A program made the translations under genes and the position numbers. From an uncultured Candidatus Saccharibacteria bacterium (GTDB taxonomy: Bacteria; Patescibacteriota; Saccharimonadia; Saccharimonadales; CAZICT01), in the NCBI GenBank assembly GCA_964537935.1, contig CAZICT010000003.1, positions 2,013 to 66,012 of the forward strand: 64,000 nucleotides of DNA, read 5' to 3'. The notes below the pieces were generated by a model. It made no database searches. It was not told the origin of the DNA and was given only the letters and a program-made list of their open reading frames with translations. Below, one piece after another: positions 11,283 through 63,769 of this stretch. Each line of letters starts with the position of its first letter. The stretch's first letter is position 1.

Positions 11283-11359
11283 TGGTAGCAGGGGCGAGAC
11301 TTGAACTCGCGACCCCAGGCTTATGAGTCCTGTGCTCTAACCAACTGAGCTACCCTGCC
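11283..11359 (-). tRNA. tRNA with CAU anticodon (elongator Met, or Ile2 if lysidine-modified), CCA encoded
   Basis: Reverse complement GGCAGGGTAGCTCAGTTGGTTAGAGCACAGGACTCATAAGCCTGGGGTCGCGAGTTCAAGTCTCGCCCCTGCTACCA folds as a cloverleaf. The 31:39 pair is A/G. Confidence 0.9.
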
Positions 11360-30125: not shown

Positions 30126-30184
30126 GGGCGGATAGCTCAGCCGGCGGAGCCTTGCTGCAGGACAATAAGCACTTTTAGGTGCTT
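30126..30184 (+). pseudogene. tRNA-like 5' fragment (acceptor strand + D-arm) followed by a UUU anticodon-like hairpin
   Basis: GGGCGGATAGCTCAGCCGGCGGAGCC shares ATAGCTCAGCCGG with tRNA-Lys. AAGCA-CTTTTAG-TGCTT (30167-30184) has a 7-nt loop with U33 and UUU. No T-arm or 3' acceptor strand is present. Confidence 0.45.
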
Positions 30185-30245
30185 TAACCGGCAAAAGCCA
30201 GAACTTTTATAATTTGATAACCGTTGATACACTTCCGTTAGTTAC

Positions 30246-30322
30246 GGGTCCATAGCTCAGCCGGTTAGAGCACCTGCCTTTTAAGCAGGGTGTCGTGGGT
30301 TCGAGTCCCACTGGACCCTCCA
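30246..30322 (+). tRNA. tRNA-Lys(UUU), CCA encoded
   Basis: GGGTCCATAGCTCAGCCGGTTAGAGCACCTGCCTTTTAAGCAGGGTGTCGTGGGTTCGAGTCCCACTGGACCCTCCA gives a perfect cloverleaf. Confidence 0.96.
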
Positions 30323-30329
30323 AACCAAG

Positions 30330-30350
30330 AACTCCCTTTTGGGAGTTTTT
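30330..30350 (+). terminator. intrinsic terminator after tRNA-Lys
   Basis: aactccc-tttt-gggagtt followed by ttt. Confidence 0.7.
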
Positions 30351-30393
30351 AGTTTGGTTGCTTTAATGAGACTCAAACCCATGGCACTCCAAA

Positions 30394-30514
30394 AGGGTGT
30401 CGTGGGTGAAGATTGCCGGTGGCAATCTGCAAGAGAACCTTCACCTGACAGCTGTGCTGTCTTGGCAGAAGTTCTGGGCCCGCAGAATGTGGGCGAGTCC
30501 CACTGGACCCTCCA
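30394..30514 (+). ncRNA. partial tRNA-Lys 3' copy whose T-loop is interrupted by a four-helix element of about 86 nt (unclassified structured RNA)
   Basis: 30394-30407 and 30494-30516 are identical to tRNA-Lys. 30408-30493 replaces a single T-loop nucleotide and folds into four hairpins. A homologous element lies at 61938-62023. Confidence 0.6.
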
Positions 30515-30523
30515 AATAAAATG

Positions 30524-30550
30524 ATTCATCTAATAGATGGGTTTTTTTAT
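30524..30550 (+). terminator. probable intrinsic terminator
   Basis: attcatc-taata-gatgggt stem (two G:U pairs) followed by T7. Confidence 0.5.
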
Positions 30551-30614
30551 TTTTAAGGTCAGGTTTCGACCTATGCTTTATTAAGTATTCAATTTGCTAC
30601 ACTAACTTCATAAT

Positions 30615-61880: not shown

Positions 61881-62029
61881 CGGGGATTGGCGCAGTTGGC
61901 TAGCGCGCTTAGGTCTTTGGACCGCGAGGTCGGAGGTGAAAACAGCCTGTGGCTGTTTGCAAGGAAGCCTTCCGATGCCAACTGGTTGGCAATTGTGAAG
62001 CTTCGGGGTCGCGGAACGTGACCGAGTCC
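61881..62029 (+). ncRNA. tRNA-Pro 5' copy (defective anticodon arm) fused at the T-loop to a four-helix element of about 86 nt (unclassified structured RNA)
   Basis: 61881-61910 and 61919-61937 are identical to tRNA-Pro. The insert at 61938-62022 starts at the same T-loop position as 30408-30493. Only CGAGTCC of the tRNA follows. Confidence 0.6.
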
Positions 62030-62064
62030 GTAGGAGTCGAACCTTTATAGTAGAATGTTGATAT

Positions 62065-62141
62065 CGGGGATTGGCGCAGTTGGCTAGCGCGCGCGGTTTG
62101 GGACCGCGAGGTCGGAGGTTCGAGTCCTCTATCCCCGACCA
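62065..62141 (+). tRNA. tRNA-Pro(UGG), CCA encoded
   Basis: CGGGGATTGGCGCAGTTGGCTAGCGCGCGCGGTTTGGGACCGCGAGGTCGGAGGTTCGAGTCCTCTATCCCCGACCA folds as a cloverleaf. Confidence 0.96.
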
Positions 62142-63769
62142 CGATCGAAATCATTCGATATTAAGAACCCTTTCCAGGGTTCTTTTAATTTGAAATCAAC
62201 TTTGTACCCCTGTTTTTTGTCCTTGAGCGGGGCAGTAATAGTGAAGTTCGAGAAAAAGTTTTTTAATACGTTGTTCATTAGCTCAATATCATGTATTTGC
62301 GGGATTGTAACAGATGCATTTCCAATAAGTTCGAGATATTTCTCATAAGTTATTACCGAGCCTTTTAGTGCTTTCCTCCGGTCAGTTGCTTTCTTGAATT
62401 GGTTTTCTAACTTCTTCAGCTCTTTCTGCATTGCATCCAGATCATAGTGTTGCTTCATGCTAGGATCATTGGCCACTAAGTTCTTAGCATTTTCATATTT
62501 TTCCTCTTTAGTGGCGATAACCTTCATGAGTTCAGCAATCTGTGAAGAGAGTTTTCGTGCGCGTTTCTTGTTAGTCTCTTCAACACGCTTAACATGTTCC
62601 TTGTAGTTTGACCGAGTTGTAAAGCGGTACTTGTTAAAGAAGTCTATTACTTCATTCAGGACCACCTTTGCACGAATGCTCTTGTTTTTGAACGGACAAG
62701 TGAATGTCTCGCATTTGTAATAGTAGTAATACTTAGTTCCGGGCTTCAGTTTCTTAGATGTTATCCCTGAAGCAAATGGTTTTCCGCAGTGACCACAGTC
62801 AATCATACCTCTTAAAAGCATGGCTCTCGTGGTTCTTGGGTTTTTAACCAGCATAGAGGACTCCAGGCGACCTGATTTGAAGCTAGACACCCTATTTATC
62901 TTCATGAAGTCTTCAACGGTCACAGCAGGCTCAAAATCATAATAATCGTGCAAATTGACCGTATGTTTCCCGTACTTTAGTACTCCGGCGTAGGTAGGGT
63001 CCTTCAAGAGTTTTGAAATAGCATCTTTATCCCATTTGAACCGTATGTGTTCTTTTCTATATGGCTTCACCGTGTAAGTAGTTGTGTTTAGCCATTTTGC
63101 TATATCAGCTTGTGTCTCCTTATTAAGCCGTTCTTCGAAAACACGTTTTATTAAAATGAAGTTCTCACCATCAGGTTGCAGCCTCCGTTGTTCATCAATA
63201 TAGTATCCATGTTTCTTTTTACCTAGGAATTGACCGCTTTCAGTGATCCTTTTATTGCCTCTTGTTACAGACTCGCTCAAATGCTCAGAGTATTGCTTAG
63301 AGAGAACGAAGGATATGCCTAATGTCATTTTTCCAGTAGGTGTATTTTCGAAAGAACTTGTAGCAAACTGGAGATCCTTGATAATGCCTTTATCCAGAAG
63401 GTCAATGATCTCTCCGGCCTCTTTCATATTTCGAGAGAGTCTATCAGGATGCCAGGAGAGGATTGCGTCAGCTTTACCATCAATGATTTCTTTAATGACG
63501 CTCCTAAACTCAGGACGCGTCTCCGATTGTTTTGCGGAGGCCTTTTCTTTAACGACTTTTACGATGTTAAGAGATCGAGGATTTGCTATCCGTTCCATAC
63601 ACTCCTTAATTTGATCAGGTATGGACCTCTCTTGACGCTCCTCGTCATAGGTAGATTTCCTAGCGTATAAAATGTATCGGAGGTTAGTGACGTCAATTTC
63701 AGAAGGACTATCATCTTGAAGACTACCTTGAAGTAGTTCGTGAAGCTCTTTAGGGTTGCTGGGTAGCAT
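62129..63769 (-). CDS. large serine recombinase (resolvase catalytic domain + recombinase domain + zinc-ribbon/coiled-coil)
   Basis: YILYARKSTYDEERQERSIPDQ (catalytic Ser), ILSWHPDRLSRN, Cys cluster CGHCGKPF...YYYKCETFTCPF. The last four codons overlap the tRNA-Pro 3' end. Confidence 0.9.
   Translation of the reverse strand: MLPSNPKELHELLQGSLQDDSPSEIDVTNLRYILYARKSTYDEERQERSIPDQIKECMERIANPRSLNIVKVVKEKASAKQSETRPEFRSVIKEIIDGKADAILSWHPDRLSRNMKEAGEIIDLLDKGIIKDLQFATSSFENTPTGKMTLGISFVLSKQYSEHLSESVTRGNKRITESGQFLGKKKHGYYIDEQRRLQPDGENFILIKRVFEERLNKETQADIAKWLNTTTYTVKPYRKEHIRFKWDKDAISKLLKDPTYAGVLKYGKHTVNLHDYYDFEPAVTVEDFMKINRVSSFKSGRLESSMLVKNPRTTRAMLLRGMIDCGHCGKPFASGITSKKLKPGTKYYYYYKCETFTCPFKNKSIRAKVVLNEVIDFFNKYRFTTRSNYKEHVKRVEETNKKRARKLSSQIAELMKVIATKEEKYENAKNLVANDPSMKQHYDLDAMQKELKKLENQFKKATDRRKALKGSVITYEKYLELIGNASVTIPQIHDIELMNNVLKNFFSNFTITAPLKDKKQGYKVDFKLKEPWKGFLISNDFDRGRG

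What the first reader, a model, noticed from the sequence alone, without database searches (positions are those of the whole stretch)
30394..30514. Partial tRNA-Lys 3' copy with the same structured insert in its T-loop, about 70 nt downstream of the intact tRNA-Lys
AGGGTGTCGTGGGT (30394-30407) and CGAGTCCCACTGGACCCTCCAAA (30494-30516) are exact copies of the variable loop/5' T-stem and the T-loop/3' T-stem/acceptor/CCA of tRNA-Lys(UUU) (30246-30322). Between them, 86 nt (30408-30493) replace a single T-loop nucleotide, at the same position as in the tRNA-Pro-derived copy at 61938. The insert folds as four hairpins: AGATTGCC-ggt-GGCAATCT; AGAAC(C)TTC...GAAGTTCT enclosing GACAG-ctgtg-CTGTC; and GCCC-gcagaatgt-GGGC. 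No acceptor 5' strand, D-arm or anticodon arm lies upstream, so it cannot be an intron-containing tRNA gene on its own. The unit is bracketed by terminator-like hairpins (30330-30350 and 30524-50), which suggests a separate short transcript ending in a tRNA-like T-arm/acceptor/CCA. The tRNA-derived flanks match the neighbouring tRNA 100% while the inserts have diverged by about 40%. That implies local duplication or gene conversion with the adjacent tRNA, or selection on the flanks.
Basis: partly seen in the sequence, partly recalled or inferred. Interest (0 to 1): 0.8.

Follow-up and report, generated by a model that had tools for sequence, protein, structure and literature searches.

The report
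tRNA-linked structured RNA module of Saccharibacteria
The "partial tRNA-Lys with an insert" is real and is one copy of an apparently undescribed, strongly conserved ~95-nt folded RNA module that Saccharibacteria carry inside decoy copies of parts of their tRNAs, next to the real tRNA genes; what it does is still unknown.

Summary
Window 30394-30516 holds exact 14-nt and 23-nt copies of tRNA-Lys(UUU), split at the T-loop by 86 nt. The insert is not a local oddity. A covariance model built from it finds more than 80 copies. Every copy with a named source genome is from Candidatus Saccharibacteria. Across 69 distinct copies, 97.5% of pair cells are paired and 33 of 35 pairs show compensatory changes. 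Rfam, the phage and plasmid collections and the literature searches gave no match.

All 55 copies with a tRNA gene within 400 nt are co-oriented with it and sit inside a partial copy of that same tRNA. Most are in the T-loop; some are in the D-, anticodon- or variable-loop. A degenerate antisense copy of the tRNA segment always lies between the real tRNA and the module-bearing copy. Together they fold into a five-helix junction. An orthologous RimK-tRNA-Lys-ComEC locus lacks the unit. A near-identical module sits in tRNA-Met-type flanks in another genome.

It is not a tRNA half, an intron or an att scar. My best reading is a cis-acting RNA element of tRNA transcription units, possibly once mobile. 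The family and structure are shown; the function is inferred.

The parts
30246..30322 (+). Intact tRNA-Lys(UUU), the donor of the copied flanks
   Evidence: ARAGORN; Rfam tRNA 73.8 bits. The sequence is identical to tRNA-Lys in L143 and L144.
30327..30350 (+). Terminator 1 of tRNA-Lys, at the apex of a long imperfect palindrome
   Evidence: Terminator scan. The stem ACTCCC/GGGAGT is shared with the tRNA-Lys terminators of L016 and of L145, which has no module, so it appears ancestral.
30353..30387 (+). R: degenerate reverse complement of tRNA-Lys positions 76 to 44 plus trailer (the antisense segment)
   Evidence: the repeat finder I1: arms 30290-30336 and 30341-30387, 74% complementary. An R segment is present in all 25 downstream-type units, at about 72% identity to the reverse complement of the local tRNA.
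30380..30404 (+). H0 hairpin: the end of R pairs with the copied variable loop and T-stem 5' strand
   Evidence: Minimum-free-energy folds.
30394..30407 (+). 5' flank: exact copy of tRNA-Lys variable loop, T-stem 5' strand and U54
   Evidence: the repeat finder D3, 100% identity to 30287-30300.
30405..30500 (+). Structured module as matched by the model (the insert proper is 30408-30493). Junction strand UGA; P1 30410-30428; GCAAG 30429-30433; P2 30434-30475; GG; P3 30478-30494.
   Evidence: Model R1, 101.9 bits, E about 3e-23; covariation.
30494..30516 (+). 3' flank: exact copy of tRNA-Lys C56 to A76 (T-loop 3' part, T-stem 3' strand, acceptor 3' strand, discriminator, CCA) plus AA. It is predicted to pair with R.
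   Evidence: the repeat finder D1, 100% identity to 30302-30324; fold.
30524..30550 (+). Weak AT-rich terminator-like hairpin followed by a T-run (terminator 2)
   Evidence: Sequence; extended palindrome I2. Not called by the consensus scan.
61881..61937 (+). Pseudo-tRNA-Pro 5' part (acceptor 5' strand, D-arm, altered anticodon arm, variable loop, T-stem 5' strand), with a TATAAT box 28 nt upstream
   Evidence: the repeat finder D1 and D2, 97% and 95% identity to tRNA-Pro; -10-like box.
61935..62029 (+). Second module copy (upstream type), in the T-loop of the pseudo-tRNA-Pro
   Evidence: Model R1, 109.6 bits.
62023..62045 (+). Short direct T-loop remnant (CGAGTCC), a small hairpin, and an antisense copy of the tRNA-Pro T-arm (AGGAGTCGAACCT)
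   Evidence: the repeat finder I2: 62032-62044 is 92% complementary to 62116-62128 in the real tRNA-Pro.
62065..62141 (+). Intact tRNA-Pro(UGG)
   Evidence: ARAGORN and Rfam.

Best explanation
The locus is a downstream-type copy of a Saccharibacteria-specific family of roughly 95-nt structured RNA modules.

Anatomy of the module: three hairpins, P1 to P3, joined by invariant junction strands (G)GUGA, UGCAAG and GG(G).

The module sits in one strand of a duplex built from a local partial copy of the neighbouring tRNA and a degenerate antisense copy of that same segment. The order along the DNA is always real tRNA, then antisense, then module-bearing sense copy, or the mirror image upstream of the tRNA.

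The unit is transcribed in the tRNA sense. At this locus that is most likely by read-through of the leaky tRNA-Lys terminator, ending at the second hairpin. The transcript folds into a five-helix junction: outer helix R:3' flank, H0, P1, P2, P3.

Inferred role: it is a cis-acting RNA element of the tRNA transcription unit. The module-capped decoy competes with the real tRNA for the antisense segment. The module acts as a folded cap, or as a binding or sensing domain, that sets this balance. The effect would fall on folding, processing or stability of precursor tRNA.

On this reading the tRNA-like ends are the decoy and the footprint of how the unit arose (inverted triplication by template switching, followed by module insertion). 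They are not a tRNA half. The module itself has been exchanged between loci during evolution.
For: SHOWN.
- Family. A pattern scan of 185,579 species genomes gave 13 true loci, all Candidatus Saccharibacteria. The model finds more than 80 copies at E below 1e-16.
- RNA structure. 97.5% of pair cells are paired; 33 of 35 pairs have double changes; 425 cells are compensatory; 0 of 500 shuffles reach these values; slid controls give 27-43% paired. The top 15 mutual-information pairs are all helix pairs. A G.U pair in P3 is kept in 63 of 69 copies, which points to the tRNA-sense strand.
- Context. All 55 copies with a tRNA within 400 nt are on the same strand as it and carry flanks copied from it. 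Spacing is stereotyped: 71-87 nt downstream or 29-47 nt upstream.
- Antisense in the middle. An R segment is present in 25 of 25 downstream units. In 16 of 18 upstream units there is an exact reverse-complement match of at least 8 nt between the module and the real tRNA (window example, I2).
- Folds of 9 downstream units and several upstream units give the same junction.
- Selection acts on the module. Flanks range from perfect to decayed while module scores stay above 95 bits.
- -10-like boxes lie upstream of the pseudo-tRNA parts.
- Presence/absence at the orthologous locus.

INFERRED: transcription by read-through, competition between the decoy and the real tRNA for the antisense segment, and any sensing or binding role of the module.
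Against: There are no expression data.

R is only about 72% complementary. Its acceptor-stem part is about 50% mismatched, so R:tRNA or R:decoy helices are weak at their outer end, and duplex energies are often little better than shuffled controls.

Terminator 1 lies between the tRNA and R, so only read-through transcripts could use the switch.

The module also occurs in non-tRNA multi-copy elements, nested in related modules and in tandem arrays. It is 96% identical between a Lys context and a Met-type context. This behaviour fits a mobile repeat as well as, or better than, a dedicated tRNA regulator.

Some relatives do without the unit at the same locus.
Confidence: 0.45

Rival explanations
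1. Same identity (a structured-RNA or ssDNA repeat family), but selfish. The module is, or was, a small non-autonomous mobile element that invades loops of tRNA-derived and other hairpins. It survives only in spare partial tRNA copies and has no role for the host. Its structure is kept because propagation needs it.
For: - Several insertion sites, always just after G or GG: T-, D-, anticodon- and variable-loops and non-tRNA hairpins.
- Nested insertion and tandem arrays.
- Presence/absence at orthologous loci, and a possible empty or excised site, GG|CGAGTCC, in L144.
- Modules do not cluster by tRNA type. The window Lys module is 96% identical to one in Met-type flanks, and 92-93% identity is seen between Lys and Met contexts on one contig.
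- Multi-copy non-tRNA elements built from shuffled blocks.
Against: - No identical copies at different loci, so there is no sign of recent activity.
- No transposase, reverse transcriptase or endonuclease gene recurs nearby.
- Absent from the phage, plasmid and viral collections.
- No terminal inverted repeats or target-site duplications were seen.
- Nearly all copies, including those not selected by the search pattern, keep full pairing through compensatory changes. Dead selfish copies would not be expected to do that.
- The strict real tRNA / antisense / decoy order is not predicted by this model.
Confidence: 0.27
2. One reading: an independent small RNA whose business end is a tRNA-Lys-like T-arm/acceptor/CCA 3' terminus. 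It would mimic or act as a decoy for enzymes or toxins that act on tRNA 3' ends, or would generate a tRF-3-like fragment. The insert would be an accessory domain.
For: - The 23-nt 3' flank including CCA is 100% identical to the tRNA.
- 11 of 25 downstream units keep at least 19 nt of perfect identity to their own tRNA's 3' end.
- By my inspection of the downstream sequences, those units are typically followed within about 10 nt by a terminator, as real tRNA genes are. This was not scored systematically.
- The flank is far better kept than the antisense copy of similar or greater age.
Against: - No acceptor 5' strand. The antisense copy is about 50% mismatched in exactly that part and would also pair with CCA.
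- 14 of 25 downstream units have a decayed acceptor/CCA part but an intact module.
- Upstream-type and non-tRNA copies have no 3' tRNA end at all.
- Neither ARAGORN nor Rfam tRNA scores the unit.
Confidence: 0.13
3. An att-site scar: the direct repeat of a tRNA 3' end left by a tRNA-targeting integrative element, with the insert as unrelated filler.
For: A partial direct copy of a tRNA 3' end downstream of the intact gene is the classic attL/attR signature. A large serine recombinase gene abuts tRNA-Pro in the window.
Against: - Only 71 nt (a terminator plus the antisense copy) separate the tRNA from the repeat. There is no cargo and no integrase at the Lys locus.
- The same spacing and architecture recur at more than 25 loci for 8 tRNA types.
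- The insert is a conserved structured RNA.
- Upstream-type units carry 5' tRNA parts, which att duplication does not produce.
Confidence: 0.03
4. An intron (self-splicing or protein-spliced) in a tRNA or split-tRNA gene, or a riboswitch controlling the downstream comEC operon.
For: Patescibacteria are rich in tRNA group I introns (PMC13011429). The antisense strand could act as a splint aligning the two 'exons'. The unit lies upstream of comEC on the same strand.
Against: - The host is never a complete tRNA, and an intact tRNA of the same identity is always adjacent.
- There is no group I or group II hit even at E up to 10, and 86 nt is too small for those catalytic cores.
- Downstream genes differ between loci and no neighbouring gene family recurs.
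- Upstream-type units precede tRNAs, not mRNAs.
- No aptamer/terminator overlap is evident.
Confidence: 0.04

Closest known systems
Non-canonical tRNA introns of Thermoproteales archaea that have transposed between tRNA genes (bulge-helix-bulge introns; from my own knowledge, with background in PMC4090602 and PMC4033280)
   Same: Short inserts at D-loop, T-loop, variable-loop and anticodon-loop positions of tRNA sequences. Related inserts are found in different tRNA species, which implies movement between tRNA loci.
   Different: This is a bacterial (CPR) lineage with no known splicing endonuclease. The hosts here are partial, non-functional tRNA copies next to an intact gene. The insert is a large conserved three-hairpin domain. 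An antisense copy of the tRNA segment belongs to the unit. No bulge-helix-bulge motif was identified.
Bacterial intergenic structured repeats: REP/REPIN, BOX (S. pneumoniae), Correia, and Rickettsia palindromic elements
   Same: Multi-copy, non-coding and hairpin-forming. They show presence/absence polymorphism and modular or nested arrangements, occur in reduced genomes (Rickettsia palindromic elements), and can act at the RNA level.
   Different: Those are mostly simple palindromes or copies with conserved sequence. This module is a multi-helix junction with invariant junction nucleotides, a conserved G.U pair and abundant compensatory change. It is tied to partial copies of the adjacent tRNA in a fixed sense-antisense-sense order. 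No partner transposase is known.
tRNA 3'-end direct repeats (attL/attR) made by tRNA-targeting integrases
   Same: An exact copy of the 3' part of a tRNA, from the variable loop to CCA, lies downstream of the intact gene.
   Different: There is no integrase or cargo between the repeats (71 nt only). The copy is interrupted in its T-loop by a conserved RNA domain. An inverted copy is present. Mirror-image units carry 5' tRNA parts.
Attenuator/T-box-type alternative-pairing leaders, and Y-RNA-like YrlA RNAs (RF02553)
   Same: Works like: three segments in which a middle strand can pair with either of two partners. The RNA is tied to tRNA identity. A long stem carries a tRNA-related module.
   Different: No sequence or model similarity: YrlA scores 14 bits against a cut-off of 69, and that weak hit lies on the tRNA itself. 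There is no specifier or antiterminator logic and no Ro/Rsr link. The regulated object would be a tRNA, not an mRNA.
Group I introns in Patescibacteria tRNA genes (PMC13011429)
   Same: Same phylum-level lineage. Structured RNA interrupts tRNA sequences that standard annotation tools miss.
   Different: Those are introns of more than 200 nt in the anticodon loop of complete, functional tRNA genes, and they self-splice. This is a roughly 90-nt module, mostly in T-loops of incomplete copies, with no group I core hit.

Membership tests
tRNA gene (RF00005 / ARAGORN) | Complete cloverleaf: acceptor stem with both strands, D-arm, anticodon arm and T-arm | tested here: not met
   ARAGORN finds only the tRNAs at 11283, 30246 and 62065. 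Rfam gives no tRNA hit on 30394-30516 or 61881-62045 even at E up to 10 or 1.
Intron-containing tRNA (group I / group II) | Catalytic intron core, and a complete tRNA once the insert is removed | tested here: not met
   No intron family hit. Removing the insert leaves only tRNA positions 44-76 at the Lys locus, or about positions 1-62 at the Pro locus.
Archaeal-type bulge-helix-bulge tRNA intron | Bulge-helix-bulge motif at both junctions, and a splicing endonuclease in the genome | not tested
   No bulge-helix-bulge motif is evident in the folds, but I made no formal search. The endonuclease could not be surveyed genome-wide. The host tRNA is incomplete in any case.
Integrase att-site duplication at a tRNA | Direct repeat of the tRNA 3' end | tested here: met
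   Exact 14-nt and 23-nt repeats.
Integrase att-site duplication at a tRNA | Integrase gene and island cargo between the repeats | tested here: not met
   71 nt between the tRNA and the repeat, containing only a terminator and the antisense copy.
YrlA / Y RNA-like (RF02553) | Match to the family model at its gathering score | tested here: not met
   14.2 bits against a cut-off of 69, and the hit lies on the tRNA, not on the module.
Any Rfam 15 family | Model match over the insert | tested here: not met
   Nothing at gathering score. Nothing meaningful at E up to 10 or 1 on three different contexts.
MITE / REP-like mobile repeat | Multi-copy, with insertion polymorphism | tested here: met
   At least 2 copies per 64 kb here and 3 on one 128-kb contig. 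L143 lacks the unit at the orthologous locus.
MITE / REP-like mobile repeat | Terminal inverted repeats, target-site duplication, and a cognate transposase | tested here: inconclusive
   No terminal inverted repeats or consistent duplication at the junctions. No recurrent neighbouring protein family. A transposase encoded elsewhere in the genome cannot be excluded.
[quoted passage not shown] | Unpaired AGNNA and UGNNA pentaloops | tested here: not met
   The candidate UGAAR and UGCAA stretches have their first or last residues in covarying Watson-Crick pairs of P1 (columns 6-29 and 7-28). The consensus comes from PMC3664808.
The new family defined here (model R1) | P1-P2-P3 junction with GGUGA, UGCAAG and GG(G) strands, embedded in a partial copy of the adjacent tRNA | tested here: met
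   101.9 bits. Flanks are 100% tRNA-Lys. The antisense segment is present.

The most novel reading that the evidence does not exclude
The module is the folded cap of a previously unknown kind of RNA device: a sense-antisense-sense switch built from copies of a tRNA. Through it, genome-reduced Saccharibacteria would control maturation of individual tRNAs. Alternatively, or in addition, it is a new class of small structured mobile RNA that invades loops of tRNA-derived hairpins, a bacterial counterpart of transposing archaeal tRNA introns.
Probability: 0.3. Interest if true: 0.9.

Novelty: categorically new. Interest (0 to 1): 0.8.

Why it matters
Saccharibacteria (TM7) are a large, mostly uncultured lineage of episymbionts with genomes of about 1 Mb. 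Even so, they keep many copies of a roughly 200-nt non-coding unit beside their tRNA genes.

The module has covariation support as strong as well-established riboswitches, yet it matches no Rfam family and none of the literature I could search.

Its architecture has no described counterpart that I could find: a conserved multi-helix domain inserted in one strand of a duplex made from a tRNA segment and its antisense copy, always arranged as real tRNA, antisense, decoy.

If the unit acts on tRNA precursors, it would be a new mode of tRNA gene control. If it is mobile, it would be a new kind of RNA-structured element that targets tRNA loops in bacteria.

There are practical consequences too. These units break short-read assemblies at tRNA loci and produce pseudo-tRNA fragments that can confuse annotation. 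Genetically tractable Saccharibacteria now exist, so the question can be tested directly.

Tried and rejected
- Orthologue fetch by ComEC in GTDB genomes found no relative by tblastn. The closest ComEC proteins are 58% identical or less, so the window's species has no close representative.
- The first genome pattern also hit a conserved PBP2 coding region in Comamonadaceae and one Thermoanaerobaculales gene. These have no hairpins and were discarded.
- The single viral-contig hit is a chance match with no structure. Phage and plasmid BLAST found nothing.
- Rfam gave nothing at gathering score or at permissive E-values in three contexts.
- A shared neighbouring protein (transposase, reverse transcriptase, nuclease) was sought by all-against-all clustering of ORFs within 2.5 kb of 80 copies. 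Only orthologous duplicates turned up. Neighbours are housekeeping genes.
- TnpB/omega-RNA-like 'scaffold plus 3' guide' idea. The 21-nt 3' flank fits, but upstream-type copies have only about 7 nt of direct flank and no nuclease is linked. Dropped.
- IS200/IS605-type insertion at a fixed target motif. The junction sequences differ between T-, D-, anticodon- and variable-loop sites. Dropped.
- Double T-loop (tRNA-elbow binding) idea. The candidate residues lie in covarying pairs. Dropped as untenable on present evidence.
- DGR-like adenine mutagenesis in the antisense copy. The spectrum is the opposite: expected T is almost never changed and the drift is toward T/A.
- The idea that the 3' copy plus terminator 2 is the ancestral tRNA end. 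Rejected because terminator 1 is shared with relatives that lack the unit.
- Extra pseudoknots. A mutual-information scan shows only the helices.
- The tRNA-like fragment at 30128-30200 is not significantly structured.
Full report
**1.
ARAGORN and Rfam place an intact tRNA-Lys(UUU) at 30246-30322. The 14-mer AGGGTGTCGTGGGT occurs at 30287-30300 and again at 30394-30407. The 23-mer CGAGTCCCACTGGACCCTCCAAA occurs at 30302-30324 and again at 30494-30516. Each occurs only twice in the window. Between the copied segments lie 86 nt (30408-30493), which replace T-loop nucleotide 55. The tRNA-Pro-derived copy upstream of tRNA-Pro (62065-62141) carries a homologous insert at the same T-loop position, at 61935-62029. 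Two independent Logan assemblies are identical to the window from inside the insert onward. They break there, as expected at a repeat. An assembly artefact is therefore excluded.

**2. The insert defines a large family.**
I built a pattern from the positions shared by the two window copies and scanned one genome per species (185,579 species). It returned 18 loci. Five were a conserved PBP2 coding region of Comamonadaceae and one was a Thermoanaerobaculales gene. The other 12 loci (13 copies) had the hairpins and were all Candidatus Saccharibacteria.

A covariance model (R1) was built from 15 genome copies. In that alignment 19 of 35 pairs already showed compensatory changes. R1 finds more than 80 copies at E below 1e-16 in the fetched loci, and exactly two in the window.

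On 69 distinct copies:
- 97.5% of pair cells form standard pairs.
- 33 of 35 pairs show changes on both sides, with 425 compensatory cells.
- None of 500 shuffles reaches these values, and slid controls give 27-43% paired.
- The top 15 mutual-information column pairs are all helix pairs, so there is no sign of a pseudoknot.
- A G.U pair in P3 is kept in 63 of 69 copies. This would be a C.A mismatch on the other strand, so it points to the tRNA-sense strand as the functional one.

Rfam 15 has nothing for the module in three different contexts. Phage, plasmid and viral collections have nothing. Five literature searches found no description. The Patescibacteria tRNA group I introns are a different thing.

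**3. Anatomy of the module.**
The consensus is GGUGA-A[P1: 8 bp, triloop NGU]U-GCAAG-[P2: GAAAC-C-UUC ... GAAG-UUUC enclosing a variable extension]-GG(G)-[P3: 6-7 bp, triloop GAA, with the G.U pair]. P3 is followed directly by the host sequence. Of 95 positions, 41 are at least 90% conserved, although the search pattern forced some of these. In the window copy, P1 is 30410-30428, P2 is 30434-30475 and P3 is 30478-30494. The T-loop C56 (30494) pairs with G30478.

**4. Context.**
Every one of the 55 copies with a tRNA gene within 400 nt is on the same strand as that tRNA, and its flanks are copied from it.

- *Downstream-type units* (25 copies, 23 distinct loci; Lys, Pro, Ala, Val, Met, Trp, Gln, Tyr) start 71-87 nt after the tRNA, beyond its terminator. 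They carry variable loop and T-stem 5' strand, then the module, then T-loop 3' part, T-stem 3' strand, acceptor 3' strand and CCA. The window Lys unit is of this type.
- *Upstream-type units* (Pro, Lys, Trp, Glu, Gln, Arg) end 29-47 nt before the tRNA. They carry the tRNA 5' part up to the interrupted loop, then the module, then only about 7 nt of direct continuation. The window Pro unit is of this type.
- *Junction.* The sequence after the module follows the local tRNA's T-loop (CGAGTCC, CGAATCC, CGATCCC, CAAGTCC, CGACTCT). The junction is therefore host-derived.
- *Other insertion sites.* The module also sits in the D-loop, sometimes giving two modules in one pseudo-tRNA. It sits in the anticodon loop of tRNA-Pro(GGG) copies and in the variable loop. 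In every case it follows a G or GG.
- *Non-tRNA settings.* It occurs in non-tRNA multi-copy intergenic elements assembled from shuffled blocks, nested in a variant module, and in tandem arrays of pseudo-tRNA-Gln fragments.
- *Neighbouring genes.* No protein family recurs within 2.5 kb, and the neighbours are housekeeping genes.

**5. An antisense copy belongs to the unit.**
In the window, 30341-30387 is 74% complementary to 30290-30336. Terminator 1 is thus the apex of a 47-nt-arm palindrome, and 30353-30387 (R) is a degenerate reverse complement of tRNA-Lys positions 76 to 44 plus trailer.

An R segment exists in all 25 downstream units, at about 72% identity to the reverse complement of the local tRNA. 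In 16 of 18 upstream units, an exact reverse-complement match of 8-13 nt to the interrupted arm lies between the module and the real tRNA. In the window, AGGAGTCGAACCT at 62032-62044 is 92% complementary to the real T-arm. The order is therefore always real tRNA, antisense, module-bearing sense copy, or its mirror image.

Folding gives one common architecture. The module is an insertion in one strand of a duplex formed by the sense copy (Y before the module, X after it) and the contiguous antisense copy. Downstream units close the Y helix with a loop (H0, 30380-30404) and leave the X helix open as the outer stem; that stem includes the CCA. Upstream units do the reverse. Non-tRNA copies show the same plan: H0, then a closing helix GCGGGU/ACCCGC.

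R is best kept next to the module (T-loop and variable-loop parts). It is about 50% mismatched in the acceptor part.

**6. Evolution.**
L143 (GCA_040960765.1) keeps the synteny RimK, small ORF, tRNA-Lys(UUU), ComEC, YebC, RuvC with an identical tRNA-Lys. It has only a terminator and an R-like relic, with no sense copy and no module. That relic shares derived states with the window's R (TTTAATG, CACTCC), so R predates the split of the two lineages.

L144 has R followed by GGGAAGG|CGAGTCC with no module. This is either an empty site or a precisely vacated one, and it is a single observation. L145 has only a terminator, and that terminator is homologous to the window's terminator 1. Terminator 1 is therefore ancestral, and the cassette lies downstream of it.

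In the window the sense flanks are 0% diverged over 37 nt, while R is about 26% diverged. The flanks are therefore younger, converted, or selected. Across the family, 11 of 25 downstream units keep at least 19 nt of perfect 3' identity. The others are decayed, yet their modules still score above 95 bits. Selection therefore clearly acts on the module and is at most conditional on the outer flanks. In upstream units the acceptor 5' strand and T-stem 5' strand track the local tRNA, while the D-loop and anticodon loop drift.

Modules do not cluster by tRNA type: mean identity is 0.72 within a type and 0.69 otherwise. The window Lys module is 96% identical to a module in tRNA-Met-type flanks in another genome. 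Lys and Met modules on one contig are 92-93% identical. Modules have therefore been moved or converted between loci.

**7. What it is not.**
- Not a tRNA or a tRNA half that could work alone.
- Not a group I or group II intron. There is no core, the host is never complete, and an intact gene is always adjacent.
- Not an att scar. Only 71 nt separate the repeats, there is no cargo, and the architecture is repeated at many tRNAs.
- Not a member of any Rfam family.
- Not phage- or plasmid-borne in the collections searched.
- Not protein-coding. Only spurious ORFs overlap it.

**8. Mechanism.**

*Shown:* a conserved RNA fold on the tRNA-sense strand; obligatory linkage and co-orientation with a tRNA gene; the sense-antisense-sense layout; presence/absence polymorphism; exchange of modules between loci.

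*Inferred:*
- The Lys unit has no room for an obvious promoter between terminator 1 and R, so read-through of terminator 1 is the likeliest source of its transcript.
- Upstream units often have a TATAAT-like box 19-28 nt before the pseudo-tRNA. The real tRNA has its own box 9-16 nt upstream.

*Preferred reading (about 45%).* The unit is a cis-acting RNA device. The antisense segment can pair either with the real tRNA or with the decoy. In the Lys case, pairing with the real tRNA extends terminator 1 into a 47-nt-arm hairpin. The module is the folded cap, or a binding or sensing domain, that sets this balance and thereby affects precursor folding, processing or stability.

*Main rival (about 27%).* The same family is a selfish, formerly mobile structured repeat with no host role.

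The origin of the layout is compatible with an inverted triplication by template switching at the terminator palindrome, followed by module insertion. This is conjecture.

**9. Novelty.**
Nothing I could search describes the module or the architecture, and I rate it categorically new. There is a caveat: unpublished or non-open-access descriptions cannot be excluded.

Noticed in passing
window 62129-63769 (-): A large serine recombinase gene (Resolvase, Recombinase and Zn_ribbon_recom domains) whose stop codon overlaps the 3' end of tRNA-Pro (62065-62141). It may mark an element integrated at tRNA-Pro and extending beyond the window end.
   Followed up: partly
window 30128-30200 (+): A 5' tRNA-Lys-like fragment, GGGCGGATAGCTCAGCCGG, matching 16 of 20 nt of the tRNA-Lys 5' end. 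It is followed by 43 unrelated nt and then CCGGC, the reverse complement of GCCGG. It looks like an upstream-type relic without the module. The fold is not better than shuffles. A promoter-like TTAACC-18-TATAAT for tRNA-Lys overlaps it.
   Followed up: partly
L034 560-1450; L105 1000-1170: A variant module: same P1, GCAAG and P3, but P2 is replaced by CCGGAAGCCGG / ATGACGAACGTCAC / CGACUGAGGCGG, and P3 carries a long loop. It lies in three tandem pseudo-tRNA-Gln 5' fragments with a period of about 182 nt upstream of the real tRNA-Gln. A full standard module is nested inside one of the variant copies.
   Followed up: partly
L063 4590-4810, L047, L060, L074, L126 (two copies, opposite strands), L131: A multi-copy non-tRNA intergenic element containing the module (H0 UCACG/CGUGA, closing helix GCGGGU/ACCCGC, extra hairpins after P3). 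Further conserved blocks lie upstream and occur in different combinations, giving a modular repeat system. There is no Rfam match.
   Followed up: partly
L144 100-165: Downstream of an identical tRNA-Lys and its terminator lies an R-like segment followed by GGGAAGG|CGAGTCC. This is a T-arm copy lacking both TT and the module. It is either an empty site or a precisely vacated one. It is a single case.
   Followed up: partly
window 30506-30560: The second terminator-like hairpin is again the centre of an extended imperfect palindrome (27-nt arms, 74% complementary). The palindrome includes the end of the copied tRNA 3' flank and repeats the layout around terminator 1.
   Followed up: no
L140, L141 (Logan assemblies SRR7082966 and SRR7082982): Contigs identical to the window start at 30472 and 30493, inside the unit. 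Short-read assemblies evidently break at these tRNA-derived repeats.
   Followed up: yes
L074 8833-8972 (-): A lysM-TM7 RNA (RF03005, 103.8 bits) on a contig that also carries the module. This supports a Saccharibacteria origin for that metagenome contig.
   Followed up: no
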